Under the pieces are notes generated by a model. The model saw only the letters and a list, made by a program, of their open reading frames with translations. It was not told the DNA's origin and did no database searches. A DNA stretch of 27,668 bases from the UHGV virus genome UHGV-0347332; one strand, 5' to 3'. Origin of the DNA: a virus. The translations under genes were made by a program, and so were the position numbers. Positions 1-5,377 of the stretch are shown in pieces; position 1 is the stretch's first letter; each line of letters opens with the position of its first letter.

Positions 1-3000
1 CAGGCATATCAATAACGCCACTGTAAATCAGCGTATTATCCAGCGCGGTACGGTTATAAATTTCAGCACCGTTTTTCCGCACTATCAGACGGCATGAGGA
101 GTAAATATCAGTATGCTCTCTCTCATGCTTAGCGCCACTGAATGCCACAGCCGGAATAACAATTTGCCGGTCAAACGGCTGATCGTCATAAACCCTGACG
201 GTAATGGTCCCTGATGGCCACCGCTCCGGTGCCCGGGAGTCACGGGGGAAAGCTTTGCCCACTGTTTTAACGAGATCGCCTTCAATCTGGTTCGCGGACA
301 GTTTTCCCAGAACCCGGCAGTTCTCGTTAATCGTGACGTTGTTGAGCGTCCCGGAGTTCGCATTCACGTTACCGCTGATATCGGCATTTTTCGCCGTCAG
401 CCGCCCGTCCGGTGTCAGGGAAAATGCCGGAGGATTACCGCCGCTGGTAATGGTGGGAGCCGTCAGATATTTCAGGAACACTTCATTCATAAATATCTGA
501 TCGCCCTGACCAACAAACATCGGCTTTGTGTTGCCATTCGCAGGATTAATCATCGCAATCCTGTCTGCCGCCAGCAGCACCTGACTCTGCATTCCTGCTG
601 GCGTATTCTCAATACCGGCACCGATACCCGCAATATAAAGGCGTCCGTCCTGCATCTGCTGCAGTTTCACGGCCCACATGCTGTTCAGGTTATTATTTGT
701 ATCAACCTGAACTTTCTGTATCTGCTGGATTGCCGCACTCTGATTTTCCAGTTTTTTATTGACGGTCTGCGTGATTTCATTGCTGACATTCGTAATGGAC
801 GTCCTGATTTCAGCCAGGTCCGGCGCAAGCTGACCGTTATCAATCTGCGTCCACAGCTCCTGGGCCAGATGTGTTTTCCCGATTTCTCCTTTGAAAAAAT
901 CCAGGTAACCTTCCGCATCATCGCTCGCCCGACCGACAGCCTCCACGAATGCCGATTTGCCAACAGTATTCACACTGCGGATATAAAAATAATAATCATG
1001 GCCCGGTTTGATATTGATACTGGCAGCTATCCAGTACAGCGCCGAGCCAAGATAGCGGGCTGCGGTTTCAACCTGCCTGATATCCGCAATCCGCTTTTCC
1101 GAGAACCAGAACTCAAACTGTACCGTCGGGTCATAAACGGCAAGATGTGGCGTTGCGGTTATCTGAAAATAGCCCGGCGTCAGCTCAATCCGCGACGGTG
1201 CTGCCGGTGCGGCAATCCGGAAGGTGGTGGTGGCAGGTTCACCCTGCTGGCCATAGCTGTTTATCGCCCGCACCGTCAGGGTGTATTCCCCGAGCGGCAG
1301 GCCGCTGAAACGGTGCTCCGTGTCTGCGGTGATGGCGGTGGTCACCAGTCTGGCATCCGTTCCCTTACCACTGGTCAGGCGCAGACTGAAGCGCACACCC
1401 TTCACCACCCGCGGCGTGTCCCATTTCGCCTGCGCCAGATACTGGCCGTCAGCTGCGCTCACCTCCACCGTCAGGTGCTGCACTGCCGGTGGGATGACGC
1501 TGTTCAGGGAACCTGACTGCGGCTCAAAGCGGGCACCGTTATCCACGATGGCTTCTTTTTCCGGTACGTGCTGCACCGCCGTGATGGCAAAGGTGCCGTC
1601 CGTGTTTTCCCGGATGGAGACACAGCGGAACAGGCGACGGCGCAGTGACGGCAGGGAGAGTCCCCACACCCCGTATGTCTCCACACCATCAGGCAGGGTA
1701 CTGACCTGTATCCGGTCCGGCGCGGGGTGTGCGGTGATGTCCACACTCACCGGCTTACCGCTGCCGTTAATCAGGTTCACCGCCGATGTACCTGTCTCCG
1801 GCAGGGTAACCTCACGGTCCAGCGTCAGGGTGCGGGTGGCAGCATCAATGGACAGGACACGTCCGCCGGTCAGGGTCCCGGCATAGTCATTATCACAGAT
1901 TTCAATAATGTCACCGGGTGTGTGCCGCAGCCCCTGAGACCCGAGCGTGAAATCCACCGTCTGCGTTTCCAGCAGTTCGGTCTTTATCACCCACAGTCCG
2001 GCACGGTGGGCCTGACCGCGGCTGGTACAGCCGAACGCGTCCATCTTCAGCAGGTTGCGTCCGTAGCGCAGTATGGCTTCCGGGTCTTCCACCAGTTCCG
2101 TGGAGGTCTGCCAGCCGTTCTGCGGGTCGGTGTAATTCACCTCCACCGCCGTGTGCCGGTCCTTCAGGGCACTGAAGCTGTAGCGGAATCCCACGCCGTT
2201 ATCATCCACCACCACATCGCTGTTGGTGTACGGCCACACCACATCCGACGGGCGGTCCTGAACGAACGTCAGCGTCTGACCGTTCCATACCGGCATACAG
2301 CGCATCGCAGAGCAGAAATCACTGAGAACGTCCCACGCCTTACGCTGTTGTGCCAGGTACGCATTAAAGGTCATCCGCGGCTCGGTCCCCCCGAAACCAT
2401 CCGGGACCGTCTGGTCGCAGTACTGCCCGATGGCATACAGCGCCCACTTGTCCACATCCGCCGCCCCCAGACGTTTTCCCATGCCGTAGCGCGGGTGAGT
2501 CAGCATGTCCCACAGACACCAGGCCGGGTTGTTGCTGTATGCCGGTTTCAGACTGCCGTCCCAGATACCACTATACGTGCGTTTTTCCGGGTCATAGTTT
2601 GACGGCACCTGGATGATGCGACCGCGGATATGGTAGTTCACCGTCATCTGCTGGCCGCCGAACTGCTCCGCATCCACCTGCAGCCCCACAATGGCCGTGT
2701 TCGGGTAGCACTGTTTCACATCGATGATTTCGGTGTATGACGACCACAGCGTCTTATTCTGCAGCTGGTCCGTGGTGCTGTCCGCCGTCTCCCTGACCAT
2801 CCGGATGTTAAAGGGCCGGGGAGGCAGATTATCCAGAATCACCGAGGCCAGGAACTGTGAGGTGGTCTTGCCGTTAATGGTGACGTCCTTTTCTGTCACC
2901 CAGTTACCGTTACGCTGTAACTGAATCAGCAGGCGGACGGATGCCGGGTTACGGTCACCCTTTGAGGTGGTCTCCACCAGTGACTGCACCCCGAAGGTAA

Positions 3001-3340
3001 CCCGCAGGCGGTCAATGTTCGCGGACGTAATGGTGCGCGTCACCGGTTTTGCCTTCGTCACTTCCACGCCCAGTCCGGTTTCAGCTCCGGAGGACTCAAA
3101 GCCTTCCGGTGGTGTCTGCTCCTGCTCCCCGGCGCGCCAGACCGCCGTCACACCGTGTATCACGGGATTGCCGTCCGTGTCCGTCAGTGGGGTTTTGTTC
3201 ACCAGAATACTCTGCAGTCCCTTCACCGGACCTTCTATCGGTCCCTCACCAATCGCATCAATCACGCTCATCATCTGCGTGGATTTGAGATTATCCTTCG
3301 CCTCACGAGGCGTGTGTGCCTTACCGCCACCTTTTCCCAT
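1..3340 (-). CDS. J: Tail tip / host-specificity protein J, partial (3' end lies beyond the left window edge)
   Basis: ATG at 3340 with GGGGAAGG Shine-Dalgarno; N-terminus [39 protein letters not shown] matches lambda J; same frame is still open at position 1 (…[24 protein letters not shown] resembles the lambda J C-terminal region). Absent from the ORF track only because no stop codon falls inside the window. Confidence 0.9.
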
Positions 3341-3446
3341 ACAGCCTTCCCCTGAATAAATTAACCGCCACTTGCCATTCCGTACAGAAGTCGGATATCC
3401 TTCGCCCGAAAAGCATGAAACACATTTCTGCCATGCTAAAGAGAAA

Positions 3447-3479
3447 CCCCGGTATCAGCAGATACCGGGGTTTTCTTTC
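3447..3479 (+). terminator. Intrinsic-terminator-like hairpin (10-bp stem CCCCGGTATC/GATACCGGGG, loop AGCA) followed by TTTTCTTTC
   Basis: Seen directly in sequence; U-tract is on the plus strand only. Confidence 0.45.
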
Positions 3480-3545
3480 ATGCCCACCGATAATCCTGTT
3501 GGTTAAAACCGGTAATGGCATAAAAATTCTGAATATCTTCACATT

Positions 3546-3573
3546 TTCACACACTGACTGTGGCGCTTATAAT
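3546..3573 (+). promoter_or_regulatory. Sigma70-like promoter: -35 TTCACA, 16-bp spacer, -10 TATAAT
   Basis: Consensus -10 hexamer with reasonable -35 and spacing, in AT-rich I-J intergenic insert. Confidence 0.35.
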
Positions 3574-3579
3574 TTCGCT

Positions 3580-3677
3580 GCGTTAGTGTTTTTTTGCCCG
3601 AGTAACAAAAACAACTCCTTAACATTGATCTTCATTTGTCTGTCCCCGCAGCTCCGCGATCACTGCGGGATTTTTTT
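3580..3677 (+). ncRNA. Candidate ~100-nt small RNA (promoter-to-terminator unit, antisense orientation to the tail operon)
   Basis: Promoter at 3546-3573 and intrinsic terminator at 3645-3677 bracket ~100 nt with no credible ORF. Inference only. Confidence 0.3.
3645..3677 (+). terminator. Rho-independent terminator (7-bp stem CCCGCAG/CTGCGGG followed by 7 T)
   Basis: Perfect GC-rich stem followed by TTTTTTT on the plus strand; the minus-strand orientation has no U-tract. Confidence 0.5.
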
Positions 3678-3682
3678 ATGTT

Positions 3683-4363
3683 TTATCCCTGTCGCCCGAT
3701 AACCACGACCGTTCCGCCCCCGCCTTCATCACGGGTGCTGATGTCCTGGGATATACGGCGGGAGCCAACCAGCATTTCCCCGTAAGGCACCGGCATCGGG
3801 TTCCCCTGGGCAATCATGTTATCCAGCGAGGAAAAGTACGTGTTCTGTCTGCCGTTATCCGTTGCGCGGTAATCCGGTGTTTTTGCCTTCGGGGCCAGCA
3901 TCTGGGCCACACCGCCCAGAATCATGCTGGCTCCAAGTGAAAACAGCATCGTGGTGGCAGAAAAACCACCGGCTGCCAGGGCTGAACCCCATAACGCCAT
4001 TGATGCCCCGGCAGTGAAGAAAGAGCCCACGATGGCTGCCGCCCCCAGCACAATCTGCAGTCCACCCTTTCCGGCCCCGGCCAGTCGCGGCACAATATGG
4101 ATGACCGTTCCCTCACCCAGCTGTTCGTGAAGACGGGCGTACACCGCCTCCGGTGCCGTGTCATAACCGGCAATACGTATCTGGTACCAGCCTTCGTTCA
4201 TCTGACGGCGAAAGCCCGGCACCTGTAACGACAGCGCCCGGATGGCTTCCGCTGCCGTGTTCACATACAGGCTGAGGCGGCGGCCAAATCGTTGTAAATC
4301 CCCGTGAAGGCAGATGCGTGCCAGTGGCGGTGACGCCAGACAGAATGCGTTCGTCGTTGCCAT
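3683..4363 (-). CDS. I: Tail tip assembly protein I
   Basis: N-terminus MATTNAFCLASPPLARICLHGDLQRFGRR and the rest of the 226-aa ORF are collinear with lambda I. Confidence 0.9.
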   Translation of the reverse strand: MATTNAFCLASPPLARICLHGDLQRFGRRLSLYVNTAAEAIRALSLQVPGFRRQMNEGWYQIRIAGYDTAPEAVYARLHEQLGEGTVIHIVPRLAGAGKGGLQIVLGAAAIVGSFFTAGASMALWGSALAAGGFSATTMLFSLGASMILGGVAQMLAPKAKTPDYRATDNGRQNTYFSSLDNMIAQGNPMPVPYGEMLVGSRRISQDISTRDEGGGGTVVVIGRQG

Positions 4364-4677
4364 TTTTCGGAATACCTCTCCCGTTTACTCAGTTGTTCAG
4401 GCAGATGGTGAAGCAGCTCACCGTTGCCGCAGTAAATGGCGGCATGGTTCGGTACCGAAGCACCAAAGCAGCACAGCAGAATATCGCCCGCCTGTGCAGA
4501 GGACAGGGGCACCCGGTAAAAGCCGGTGACCGCCATATTGTCCAGGTAAAGGTTCTGACCGTTGCGCCACCAGTCATCCTCGCGATGAAAATCCGGCATT
4601 TCAGTCCCCGCCAGATGATAAGCATCCCGGAACAGCGTGTAACAGTCCGTCGGCAATTTTGGCGGTTTCCTTTCCAT
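4261..4677 (-). pseudogene. K: Tail tip assembly protein K remnant: NlpC/P60-like C-terminal part only (TDCYTLFRDAYH…), N-terminal JAB/MPN domain absent
   Basis: ORF matches lambda K only from about TDCYTLF onward; the first 9 residues (MERKPPKLP) are antisense of an L 3' fragment; no Shine-Dalgarno upstream. Confidence 0.6.
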
Positions 4678-5377
4678 TAATAAACTTTCGCAGTAAATCC
4701 CGGTTTATGACACAGACTGAATCAGCGATTCTGGCGCATGCCCGGCGGTGTGCGCCTGCGGAGTCGTGCGGCTTCCGGATATCCGTGGTGGGGTTGTCGA
4801 ACTCATCCGCCACCGCAGGACCGTTATACCCGCATTCATCTCCCCGGTAATCCCACATACAGGTGTTCGCCAGCATGATGCGACCGGGAAACAGCGCCCC
4901 ATCCGTCTCGGTCGGTGTAGCCAGCACAAACGAGGCCGTCATGGCTGTCAGCTGCGACATCTGCTCCACCACCCAGCGGTCACTCAGCTCCTGCTCCGGG
5001 TCCGCCTCCGGATTGCCCGCAACGAAATTCACCGCATCCAGAAAACGGGCATACACCCGGCGGCGGACCACCGTGGCCCCCACCAGACTCTGCAGGTCTT
5101 CCGCCATCCCGGTGACCAGACCGAACAGATTGGACACCGTCAGCGACGGTCTGGCACTGCTGCCCTTCCCGCTCATCTCAAAACCGCTGCCGTCAATCGG
5201 GTATGCCTGATATTGCCGCCCCTGCCAGGTGACCGGCTCCCCTTTTTCATTCAGCTCATTACAGAAAAAATACCGCTCACCGCCCTGTACCGTCAGGTCG
5301 ATTTCCCAGAGTACCACCCGCGGTGACTGCTCTGACTTAACCGACTCGTTCAGACTTTCTTCGCGAATATCCTGCAT
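4601..5377 (-). CDS. L: Minor tail protein L, C-terminus altered (homology ends near 4778; ORF then reads antisense through the inverted K 5' fragment)
   Basis: MQDIREESLNE… and the CMWDYRGDECGY motif match lambda L through …DNPTTDI; the following 59 residues lack the expected Cys-rich tail. Confidence 0.7.
   Translation of the reverse strand: MQDIREESLNESVKSEQSPRVVLWEIDLTVQGGERYFFCNELNEKGEPVTWQGRQYQAYPIDGSGFEMSGKGSSARPSLTVSNLFGLVTGMAEDLQSLVGATVVRRRVYARFLDAVNFVAGNPEADPEQELSDRWVVEQMSQLTAMTASFVLATPTETDGALFPGRIMLANTCMWDYRGDECGYNGPAVADEFDNPTTDIRKPHDSAGAHRRACARIADSVCVINRDLLRKFINGKETAKIADGLLHAVPGCLSSGGD
4649..4777 (+). pseudogene. Inverted segment carrying the L 3' end (…VGNFGGFLSINKLSQ, stop at 4694-4696), a 10-nt spacer and the K 5' end (MTQTESAILAHARRCAPAESCGF, 4707-4775) on the opposite strand
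   Basis: Plus-strand translation gives the lambda L C-terminal motif and the lambda K N-terminus in their native order and spacing, but inverted relative to the flanking minus-strand L and K bodies. Confidence 0.6.

What the first reader, a model, noticed from the sequence alone, without database searches (positions are those of the whole stretch)
3341..3682. I-J intergenic insert with a promoter-terminator unit: candidate small RNA antisense to the tail operon
Lambda has I and J nearly adjacent; here ~340 bp of lower-GC sequence separate them. It contains a plus-strand terminator (3447-3479), a near-consensus sigma70 promoter (TTCACA, 16 bp, TATAAT at 3546-3573) and about 100 nt later a second plus-strand terminator (3645-3677) that ends 5 nt from the I stop codon. 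The bracketed ~100 nt have no credible ORF. This looks like a self-contained small-RNA gene transcribed opposite to the tail genes.
Basis: inference. Interest (0 to 1): 0.5.

Follow-up and report, generated by a model that had tools for sequence, protein, structure and literature searches.

The report
Known prophage small RNA PasB

Summary
I (3683-4363, minus) and J (start 3340, minus) are separated by 342 bp of low-GC DNA. It carries a strong hairpin with a T-tract (3447-3479), a TTCACA-16-TATAAT promoter (3546-3573) and a terminator (3645-3677) ending 5 nt before the I stop codon.

The unit is the pasB gene. The published PasB Northern probe is the exact reverse complement of window 3650-3672. 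Window 3521-3700 matches the E2348/69 pasB locus except at 3621, which is position 27 of the 83-nt RNA, the position where the published PasB-2 variant differs. PasB is Hfq-dependent and has 37 recorded RNA-RNA interactions on Hfq.

New details found here:
- Diverged alleles (73-80% identity) fill the I-J spacer of many Stx and lambdoid prophages: 5503 copies in 1808 of 5426 complete E. coli genomes.
- These alleles include EcOnc22/23/24 of EHEC Sakai.
- All alleles keep an A-R-N repeat run, an AUCUU core and the terminator. No reading frame is conserved.
- The promoter predicts a 98-nt transcript, against the 83 nt reported.
- The left part of the spacer (about 3341-3520) is a separate module with a two-way terminator.

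Verdict: real and correctly read, but already known. Rfam has no model for it.

The parts
1..3340 (-). 5' 3340 nt of tail-tip gene J (host specificity). The gene runs off the window start.
   Evidence: Pfam FNIII-A_GpJ, E 3e-42. RefSeq annotates gpJ at the matching place in strain 4/1-1.
3341..3682 (.). I-J spacer, 342 bp, low GC. Built from two modules that recombine independently.
   Evidence: Lambda has a 60-bp spacer.
3341..3520 (.). Left module, unrelated to the left part of the commoner 240-bp spacer. At least 95% identical in 1446 E. coli genomes. Found next to different PasB alleles.
3447..3479 (.). Two-way intrinsic-terminator hairpin: 10-bp GC-rich stem, loop AGCA, T-rich tract on both strands.
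   Evidence: Folds at -24.7 kcal/mol (plus strand) and -27.1 kcal/mol (minus strand), z = -5.4 and -7.2.
3526..3546 (+). Box TTCTGAAnnTCTTCACATTT, unchanged in all alleles, just upstream of the -35 box. It holds TCTGA-N6-TCACA (3528-3543), a 9-of-10 match to the CRP core. Function untested.
   Evidence: Invariant columns. It is the only match with at most 1 mismatch in the 27.7-kb window.
3546..3573 (+). Sigma-70 promoter of pasB: TTCACA, 16 nt, TATAAT.
   Evidence: 11 of 12. Identical in E2348/69. The -10 box is kept as TATAAT, GATAAT, AATAAT or TATCAT across alleles.
3580..3677 (+). PasB sRNA. The promoter predicts a primary transcript of 3580-3677 (98 nt). The published 83-nt RNA maps to 3595-3677.
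   Evidence: Probe match. Alignment to NC_011601.1 1466343..1466261. Covariance model 103.9 bits.
3601..3615 (+). Five consecutive A-R-N triplets (AGU AAC AAA AAC AAC), a candidate binding motif for the distal face of Hfq.
   Evidence: 0 of 2000 shuffles reach 5 repeats. Every allele keeps at least 3 at this place.
3613..3634 (+). Conserved single-stranded motifs AACUCC (3613-3618) and AUCUUCA (3628-3634), the candidate seed region. Base 3621 (A here, C in E2348/69) is position 27 of the 83-nt RNA.
   Evidence: Invariant columns. Unpaired in the predicted folds.
3645..3677 (+). Intrinsic terminator of pasB: 7-bp stem, 11-nt loop, A then U7. It works on the plus strand only.
   Evidence: The stem is the same in 12 alleles and the loop varies.
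3683..4363 (-). Tail assembly gene I. RefSeq starts it at the position matching 4264.
   Evidence: Pfam Lambda_tail_I, E 2.3e-16..

Best explanation
Window 3546-3677 (plus strand) is the pasB gene, carried in the I-J spacer of a lambdoid prophage. Host sigma-70 RNA polymerase starts at about 3580 and stops at the intrinsic terminator (3' end about 3677). The product is 83-98 nt and is largely unstructured upstream of the terminator hairpin.

The RNA is made in the lysogen, independently of the late tail operon, and is stabilised by the RNA chaperone Hfq. It acts in trans by imperfect base pairing with host and accessory-genome mRNAs. The conserved single-stranded stretch (AACUCC ... AUCUUCAU, 3613-3636) is the likely pairing region. 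The 3' U7 tail and the A-R-N run are the likely Hfq contacts.

Shown by published experiments on the E2348/69 allele, which differs by one base: the transcript exists, it depends on Hfq, and it forms RNA-RNA chimeras on Hfq. Inferred here: the exact start site, the seed region, the mode of Hfq binding, and expression in this particular strain.

The left part of the spacer is a separate module. Its two-way terminator probably shields pasB and J from read-through transcription.
For: Identity:
- The PasB Northern probe AATCCCGCAGTGATCGCGGAGCT (PMC8550237 table S6) is the exact reverse complement of window 3650-3672. It occurs once, with 0 expected by chance.
- PasB is mapped to NC_011601.1 1466343..1466261 (minus strand), between the I and J homologues, 6 nt from the I stop.
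- The window is identical to that locus from 3521 to 3700 except at 3621, which is position 27. That is the position where the published PasB-2 variant differs.

Function (the comparison is described):
- pasB falls by log2 6.8 (activating medium) and 2.4 (non-activating medium) in the wild-type versus delta-hfq RNA-seq comparison.
- It has 37 RIL-seq interactions and a 7-nt U tract. My reading of unlabelled table columns is that it is the second RNA in 99-100% of chimeras.
- It is more abundant under non-activating conditions.

Family conservation:
- Alleles 73-80% identical keep the -10 box, GCGUUA, the A-R-N run, AAYUCC, AUCUU and the terminator.
- No ORF is conserved.
- The Sakai alleles are EcOnc22/23/24: Hfq-crosslinked, about 85 nt on Northern, destabilised in delta-hfq. 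23 contiguous bases of their published probe match the RNA body at L016 775-797.

Prevalence: 5503 places in 1808 of 5426 complete E. coli genomes.
Against: - Expression was not measured in the strain the window comes from, and the DNA upstream of 3521 differs from E2348/69.
- The published 5' end (3595) lies 15 nt downstream of the start predicted from the promoter (about 3580). Either the mapping from read coverage is approximate or the RNA is processed.
- No PasB target has been validated, and no shared target motif was reported for PasB (the target-motif supplementary file does not mention PasB).
- Only the terminator is a consensus structure, and it shows no covariation because the stem never varies.
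- Rfam 15 has no matching family.
Confidence: 0.88

Rival explanations
1. The RNA acts mainly in cis. It would pair with the complementary I-J spacer of the late tail transcript, or its transcription would collide with late transcription. Either would adjust J (host-range protein) output or silence leaky tail expression in the lysogen.
For: Every copy examined lies in the I-J spacer, facing I and ending 5-6 nt from its stop codon. The RNA is fully complementary to the late transcript by position.
Against: - It overlaps no coding sequence and no ribosome-binding site. The J start is 240 nt from the RNA's 5' end.
- A purely antisense RNA needs no conserved internal motifs, yet the A-R-N run and the AUCUU core are unchanged in alleles that otherwise differ by 25%.
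- RIL-seq finds many partners in trans.
- Predicted pairing with the J initiation region is no better than for shuffled RNA: -25.5 against -22.7 +/- 3.6 kcal/mol, with 205 of 1000 shuffles as good. The E2348/69 and Sp15 alleles score worse than their shuffles.
Confidence: 0.1
2. PasB is a sponge (anti-sRNA), like the prophage RNAs AgvB and AsxR. It would bind the distal face of Hfq and soak up a core sRNA rather than regulate mRNAs.
For: It has a conserved A-R-N run, the motif noted in AgvB and AsxR. It is prophage-borne. One RIL-seq partner is the region next to pasA.
Against: By my reading of the table columns, 30 of its 37 RIL-seq partners are coding or 5'UTR regions, and PasB is nearly always the second RNA in a chimera, which is the behaviour of a regulator sRNA. 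At 83-98 nt it is longer than the 51-60-nt anti-sRNAs. The covariance model and Rfam show no relation to AgvB or AsxR.
Confidence: 0.08
3. The left module (about 3341-3520) encodes a second plus-strand small RNA of about 75 nt. It would start from the weak promoter TTGCCA-18-TATCCT (3372-3401) and end at the 3447-3479 hairpin.
For: A promoter-like site scoring 9 of 12. Region 3405-3487 folds at -32.2 kcal/mol, z = -6.2. The module is kept at 95% identity or more in 1446 genomes.
Against: - The z-score comes almost entirely from the terminator hairpin.
- The promoter is weak.
- There is no sequence diversity, so conservation cannot be tested.
- No Hfq-crosslinking peak is listed for this place in Sakai Sp12, which carries the module.
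- The hairpin terminates just as well on the tail-operon strand. Lambda and the 240-bp spacers also carry a terminator-like hairpin on that strand upstream of J. This points to a terminator or insulator role.
Confidence: 0.08
4. The spacer encodes a small protein. Candidates are the 128-aa plus-strand ORF 3316-3702 and the 66-77-aa minus-strand ORF 3321-3554, which phage ASU11 annotates as a hypothetical protein.
For: The ORFs exist. One phage record annotates the minus-strand ORF.
Against: Both ORFs run through strong terminator hairpins. No frame is conserved across 11 alleles. The 77-aa minus-strand ORF has no Pfam match. RefSeq annotates nothing between I and J.
Confidence: 0.02

Closest known systems
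PasB (pathogenicity-associated sRNA B) of EPEC E2348/69: Pearl Mizrahi et al. 2021, PMC8550237; distribution in Zhu, Shabalina and Storz 2026, bioRxiv 10.64898/2026.05.13.724894
   Same: The locus is between I and J, on the strand opposite the tail genes. The promoter and terminator are identical. 82 of the 83 RNA positions are identical, and the Northern probe matches exactly.
   Different: One base differs (A3621 against C, position 27, consistent with variant PasB-2). The DNA upstream of 3521 is a different, longer module (342-bp spacer against 240 bp).
EcOnc22/23/24 of EHEC O157:H7 Sakai (prophages Sp15, Sp14, Sp11): Tree et al. 2014, PMC4104026
   Same: Position in the I-J spacer and strand. 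Shared GCRUUA 5' end, A-R-N run, AACUCC, AAUCUUCAU and an identical terminator stem. About 85 nt and Hfq-dependent. The model built from the alleles scores them at 89.8 bits.
   Different: About 73-75% identical to the window allele. The -10 box is AATAAT, there is no second TTCACA -35 box, and the RNA body is 8 nt shorter. Neither Pas paper that I read links these RNAs to PasB.
AgvB and AsxR anti-sRNAs, and HnrS, of lambdoid prophages in EHEC
   Same: Short Hfq-binding RNAs carried as extra genes in prophage late regions. They are expressed in the lysogen from their own promoter and terminator. A-R-N motifs were noted in AgvB and AsxR.
   Different: They sit elsewhere: downstream of the late promoter PR', or near the lysis and terminase genes. 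HnrS maps to L014 972-1037. They share no sequence with PasB. AgvB and AsxR sequester sRNAs, and HnrS represses hha.
STnc100 / PasD
   Same: Another prophage sRNA. A copy is present in this window at 23645-23834.
   Different: Unrelated sequence, about 190 nt, located in the Q/lysis region, and it has an Rfam model.

Membership tests
PasB sRNA | Sequence identity to the 83-nt PasB of E2348/69 (NC_011601.1 1466343..1466261, minus strand) | tested here: met
   82 of 83 positions identical. The only difference is at position 27 (window 3621).
PasB sRNA | Complementary to the published Northern probe AATCCCGCAGTGATCGCGGAGCT | tested here: met
   Exact match at 3650-3672 on the plus strand, one site, 0 expected by chance.
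PasB sRNA | Located between the I and J homologues (E2348C_1436 and 1437), facing I | tested here: met
   The 3' end lies 5-6 nt from the I stop in both genomes.
PasB sRNA | [quoted passage not shown] | tested here: met
   7-bp stem and U7.
PasB sRNA | Transcript detectable and dependent on Hfq | not testable with these tools
   Shown only for the E2348/69 allele and the Sakai alleles. The core promoter here is identical to E2348/69.
Rfam-curated sRNA family | Match to an Rfam 15 covariance model at its gathering score | tested here: not met
   No hit in 3341-3682 at gathering thresholds. The best sub-threshold hits are terminator look-alikes at 15-27 bits.
Class II Hfq-dependent sRNA (binds the proximal and distal faces of Hfq) | 3' U tract plus an internal run of A-R-N triplets | tested here: met
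   U7 tail and 5 A-R-N triplets at 3601-3615 (0 of 2000 shuffles). All alleles have at least 3.
Class II Hfq-dependent sRNA (binds the proximal and distal faces of Hfq) | Stability lost in Hfq distal-face mutants | not testable with these tools
   Needs Hfq Y25D, Q8A and R16A mutant strains.
cis-antisense regulatory RNA | Overlaps a coding region or translation-initiation region of the gene on the other strand | tested here: not met
   The RNA (3580-3677) lies wholly within the untranslated spacer. The I stop is at 3683 and the J start at 3340.
CRP-regulated promoter | TGTGA-N6-TCACA site centred at -41.5 or -61.5 from the start site | tested here: inconclusive
   TCTGA-N6-TCACA at 3528-3543 is unchanged in all alleles and is the only such site in the window. 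Its centre lies at about -44.5 from the predicted start at 3580, which is not a standard spacing.

The most novel reading that the evidence does not exclude
PasB and the EcOnc22-24 RNAs would form one large family of I-J-spacer sRNAs that does two jobs. In the lysogen it would act as a class II Hfq sRNA on host mRNAs, possibly controlled through the invariant CRP-like box. On induction it would pair with the complementary spacer of the late transcript to set J (host-range protein) output, together with the terminator on the tail-operon strand that lambda and both spacer types examined here (240 bp and 342 bp) keep upstream of J.
Probability: 0.08. Interest if true: 0.5.

Novelty: already known. 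Interest (0 to 1): 0.15.

Why it matters

Three practical points remain:
- The gene is missing from Rfam and from RefSeq annotation, although a copy sits in about a third of complete E. coli genomes, with up to 10 copies per genome.
- The EPEC (PasB) and EHEC (EcOnc22-24) names describe one family. The two Pas papers I read do not make this link.
- Its targets and physiological role are still unknown, and ST131-type strains such as H105 and 81009 carry this exact sequence.

The conserved A-R-N run and AUCUU core give concrete sites to mutate.

Tried and rejected
- **Rfam.** The scan at gathering thresholds and at permissive E-values found no family for the spacer, only terminator look-alikes.
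- **HnrS (EcOnc10-12).** I suspected it was the same RNA because it is a multicopy late-region sRNA with a CUUCU seed. It is not. It maps to a 66-nt promoter-terminator unit between a DNase gene and the lysis genes (L014 972-1037).
- **AgvB and AsxR.** They lie at a different site downstream of the late promoter PR'.
- **Structure beyond the terminator.** RNAalifold found none, and there is no covariation because the terminator stem never varies. The 5' hairpins predicted for single alleles are not conserved.
- **Coding potential.** No frame is conserved.
- **PasB pairing with the J initiation region.** Not better than shuffled controls.
- **PasB RIL-seq target list.** I could not retrieve it. 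The phrase-search trick on the supplementary table returned nothing.
- **Species scan.** An exact family pattern was run over one genome per species. By the covariance model, only E. albertii (2 loci) and 3 contigs filed under unrelated taxa are true hits. The other 7 loci are chance terminator-like matches.
- **Lambda.** Its 60-bp I-J spacer has no PasB-like sequence.

Full report
**1. What is in the sequence**

The window is the late region of a lambdoid prophage read on the strand opposite the tail genes.
- ORF 3683-4363 (minus) is tail assembly protein I (Pfam Lambda_tail_I, E 2.3e-16).
- The minus-strand ORF that starts at 3340 is the tail-tip protein J (FNIII-A_GpJ, E 3e-42).
- Between them lie 342 bp (3341-3682) in which GC falls to 0.39-0.47, against 0.55-0.65 in the flanks.
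- Lambda has 60 bp between I and J.

- The promoter TTCACA-16-TATAAT is at 3546-3573, matching 11 of 12 positions.
- The terminator has stem CCCGCAG 3645-3651 paired with CUGCGGG 3663-3669, then A and U7 to 3677. That is 5 nt before the I stop codon.
- The upstream hairpin has stem 3447-3456 paired with 3461-3470 and a T-rich tail to 3479. It folds at -24.7 kcal/mol, z = -5.4.
It can therefore terminate in both directions.

**2. Identity: the unit is pasB**

No Rfam family matches the spacer. The literature does.

Pearl Mizrahi et al. (Sci Adv 2021, PMC8550237) named five prophage sRNAs of EPEC E2348/69 that they found by RIL-seq and confirmed by Northern blot. Their table S6 gives PasB as NC_011601.1, minus strand, 1466343..1466261, 83 nt, in prophage PP6 between E2348C_1436 and E2348C_1437. 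The probe is AATCCCGCAGTGATCGCGGAGCT.
- The reverse complement of that probe occurs once in the window, at 3650-3672 on the plus strand, with 0 expected by chance.
- In E2348/69 those two genes are the I and J homologues, 240 bp apart. PasB ends 6 nt from the I stop.
- The window and E2348/69 are identical from 3521 to 3700, apart from A3621 (C in E2348/69).
- With the published 5' end placed at 3595, base 3621 is position 27. Zhu, Shabalina and Storz (bioRxiv 2026) report that variant PasB-2 differs from PasB at position 27. They also report that the E2348/69 sequence is not the commonest variant.

The window therefore carries pasB, apparently the PasB-2 allele.

**3. What is known about how it works**

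In E2348/69, pasB falls by log2 6.8 (activating medium) and 2.4 (non-activating medium) in the wild-type versus delta-hfq RNA-seq comparison (table S2; the comparison is described). I take the direction to be delta-hfq over wild type, because other Hfq-dependent sRNAs in the same table also go down.

Other published points:
- The Northern blot confirmed the size and the dependence on Hfq. PasB is more abundant under non-activating conditions.
- It has a 7-nt U tract and 37 RIL-seq interactions.
- My reading of unlabelled table columns is that 30 of the 37 partners are coding or 5'UTR regions, and that PasB is the second RNA in 99-100% of its chimeras.
- No PasB target has been validated, and no shared target motif was reported for it.

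The best-supported mechanism is therefore an Hfq-dependent sRNA that pairs with other RNAs in trans. It is made from its own sigma-70 promoter in the lysogen.

(a) *A much larger family.*
- A sensitive search with 3530-3682 finds 5503 places in 1808 of 5426 complete E. coli genomes, up to 10 per genome. Identities run down to about 73%.
- It also hits 147 phage records, mostly Stx-converting phages.
- Every copy I fetched lies in the I-J spacer in the same orientation. In Stx2a_WGPS2 a transposase gene replaces J on that side.
- Alignments A2, A4 and A5 show at least five allele types.
- Across all of them these elements are unchanged or nearly so: the box TTCTGAAnnTCTTCACATTT, a -10 hexamer, the 5' GCRUUA, a U run, a run of A-R-N triplets, AAYUCC, the core AUCUU, and the terminator CCCGCAG...CUGCGGGAU6-8. 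The sequence between these elements and the terminator loop vary freely.

(b) *The EHEC alleles were already seen in 2014.*
- Tree et al. (PMC4104026) list EcOnc22/23/24 in Sakai prophages Sp15, Sp14 and Sp11. They are Hfq-crosslinked, about 85 nt on Northern, and destabilised in delta-hfq.
- Their coordinates fall in the three I-J spacers.
- The probe is GGGAGAGAACGATGAAGATTAACTGATGAGTTA. It contains 23 contiguous bases that are exactly complementary to the RNA body at L016 775-797, and to the same place in the other two copies.
- The covariance model built from the alleles scores the three copies at 89.8 bits each.
- The listed Hfq-crosslinking peaks fit the RNA body once a shift of 128 bp between the two versions of the Sakai record is allowed. 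I estimated that shift from HnrS/EcOnc10 and from the original chromosome length, which I recalled rather than checked.
- Table S6 of the 2021 paper notes no EHEC homologue for PasB. The 2026 preprint describes only a few nucleotide differences among PasB variants. Linking the two names is a small new point.

(c) *Anatomy of the RNA.*
- The only consensus structure is the terminator. Its stem never varies, so covariation says nothing for or against it.
- The body is predicted to be mostly single-stranded.
- The window allele has five consecutive A-R-N triplets at 3601-3615 (0 of 2000 shuffles). Every allele keeps at least three at the same place, although the letters differ.
- Together with the U7 tail, this is the sequence signature of an sRNA that uses both the proximal and distal faces of Hfq. 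That is an inference, not a test.
- The conserved AACUCC and AUCUUCA motifs lie in the stretch just upstream of the terminator, where Zhu et al. propose the seed.

(d) *The 5' end.* With TATAAT at 3568-3573, the start should be near 3580, giving 98 nt. The published 83 nt came from read coverage and approximate band size. For the Sp15 allele the promoter predicts 91 nt, against about 85 nt on Northern. The 5' end is therefore uncertain by about 15 nt.

(e) *The spacer is a mosaic.*
- The left part (about 3341-3520) has no counterpart in the 240-bp spacers.
- It is at least 95% identical in 1446 genomes.
- It sits next to the window's PasB allele in Sakai Sp12. It sits next to the PhiR5_1-type allele, 79-80% identical, in strains NMBU-W10C18, SCU-484 and SY033.
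- The 240-bp spacers instead carry the hairpin CAGGCACCC...GGGTGCCTG. On the tail-operon strand it is followed by UUGUUUU. Lambda's 60-bp spacer has a similar hairpin on that strand.
- A terminator-like hairpin upstream of J on the tail-operon strand is thus common to all three spacer types. The pasB unit sits between it and the I stop codon.

(f) *A CRP-like box.* TCTGA-N6-TCACA at 3528-3543 is the only site in the window within one mismatch of the CRP core. Its half-sites are unchanged in all alleles. Its centre is about 44.5 bp upstream of the predicted start, which is not a standard spacing. This is a lead only.

**5. Rivals**

- *cis-antisense role.* The fixed position makes it attractive. 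However, the RNA overlaps no coding or initiation region, and conserved internal motifs are not needed for antisense pairing. Predicted pairing with the J initiation region is no better than for shuffled sequences.
- *Sponge role.* This fits the A-R-N run but not the partner profile.
- *A second sRNA in the left module.* It rests on a weak promoter and a hairpin that works on both strands.
- *Small-protein readings.* They fail because no frame is conserved.

**6. Verdict**

The feature is the already described sRNA PasB, so novelty is 'already known' and interest is low.

The residual value lies in three things: the link between PasB and EcOnc22-24, the family's size and missing annotation, and concrete motifs for experiments.

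In the one-genome-per-species collection, only E. albertii and a few contigs filed under unrelated taxa carry it. This fits the reported restriction to Escherichia and Shigella.

Noticed in passing
window 4649-4781: Compared with the otherwise 99.8-99.98% identical prophage of E. coli 4/1-1, a 456-bp stretch at the junction of K (C40 peptidase) and L is replaced by about 120 bp that is an inverted copy of part of it. K is cut to 138 aa (NlpC/P60 domain only) and the L frame runs on to 258 aa. This is either a tail-defective prophage or an assembly artefact.
   Followed up: partly
window 23645-23834 (minus strand); 24534-24607 and 24711-24783 (minus strand): A full-length STnc100 sRNA (RF02076, 132 bits) and two tRNA genes lie in the late-regulatory region. 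STnc100 is reported to be related to PasD.
   Followed up: no
window 3447-3479; L003 and L016 spacers; lambda L037 746-805: Lambda (60 bp), the common 240-bp type and this 342-bp type all carry a terminator-like hairpin on the tail-operon strand just upstream of J, although the sequences are unrelated. Its role in an operon read by antiterminated polymerase is unexplained.
   Followed up: partly
window 3526-3546: The box TTCTGAAnnTCTTCACATTT is unchanged in all alleles. It contains a 9-of-10 CRP core and a copy of ATCTTCA, the same heptamer as the conserved core of the RNA (3628-3634).
   Followed up: partly
L028 (Streptomyces flavalbus contig), L024 (Parendozoicomonas haliclonae, 460-bp contig), L029 (Clostridiales MAG): Full-length PasB-family matches of 80-107 bits sit on short contigs filed under unrelated taxa. 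These look like E. coli prophage contamination in those assemblies.
   Followed up: partly
L014 972-1037 (NC_002695.2 2234371-2234436): A 66-nt promoter-terminator unit matches the published description of HnrS/EcOnc10. Coordinates in the 2014 EcOnc table appear to be shifted by about 128 bp relative to the current Sakai record.
   Followed up: partly
window 3316-3702 (plus strand) and 3321-3554 (minus strand): Two long open frames span the spacer. Phage ASU11 annotates the minus-strand one as a hypothetical protein. Neither frame is conserved in other alleles.
   Followed up: yes
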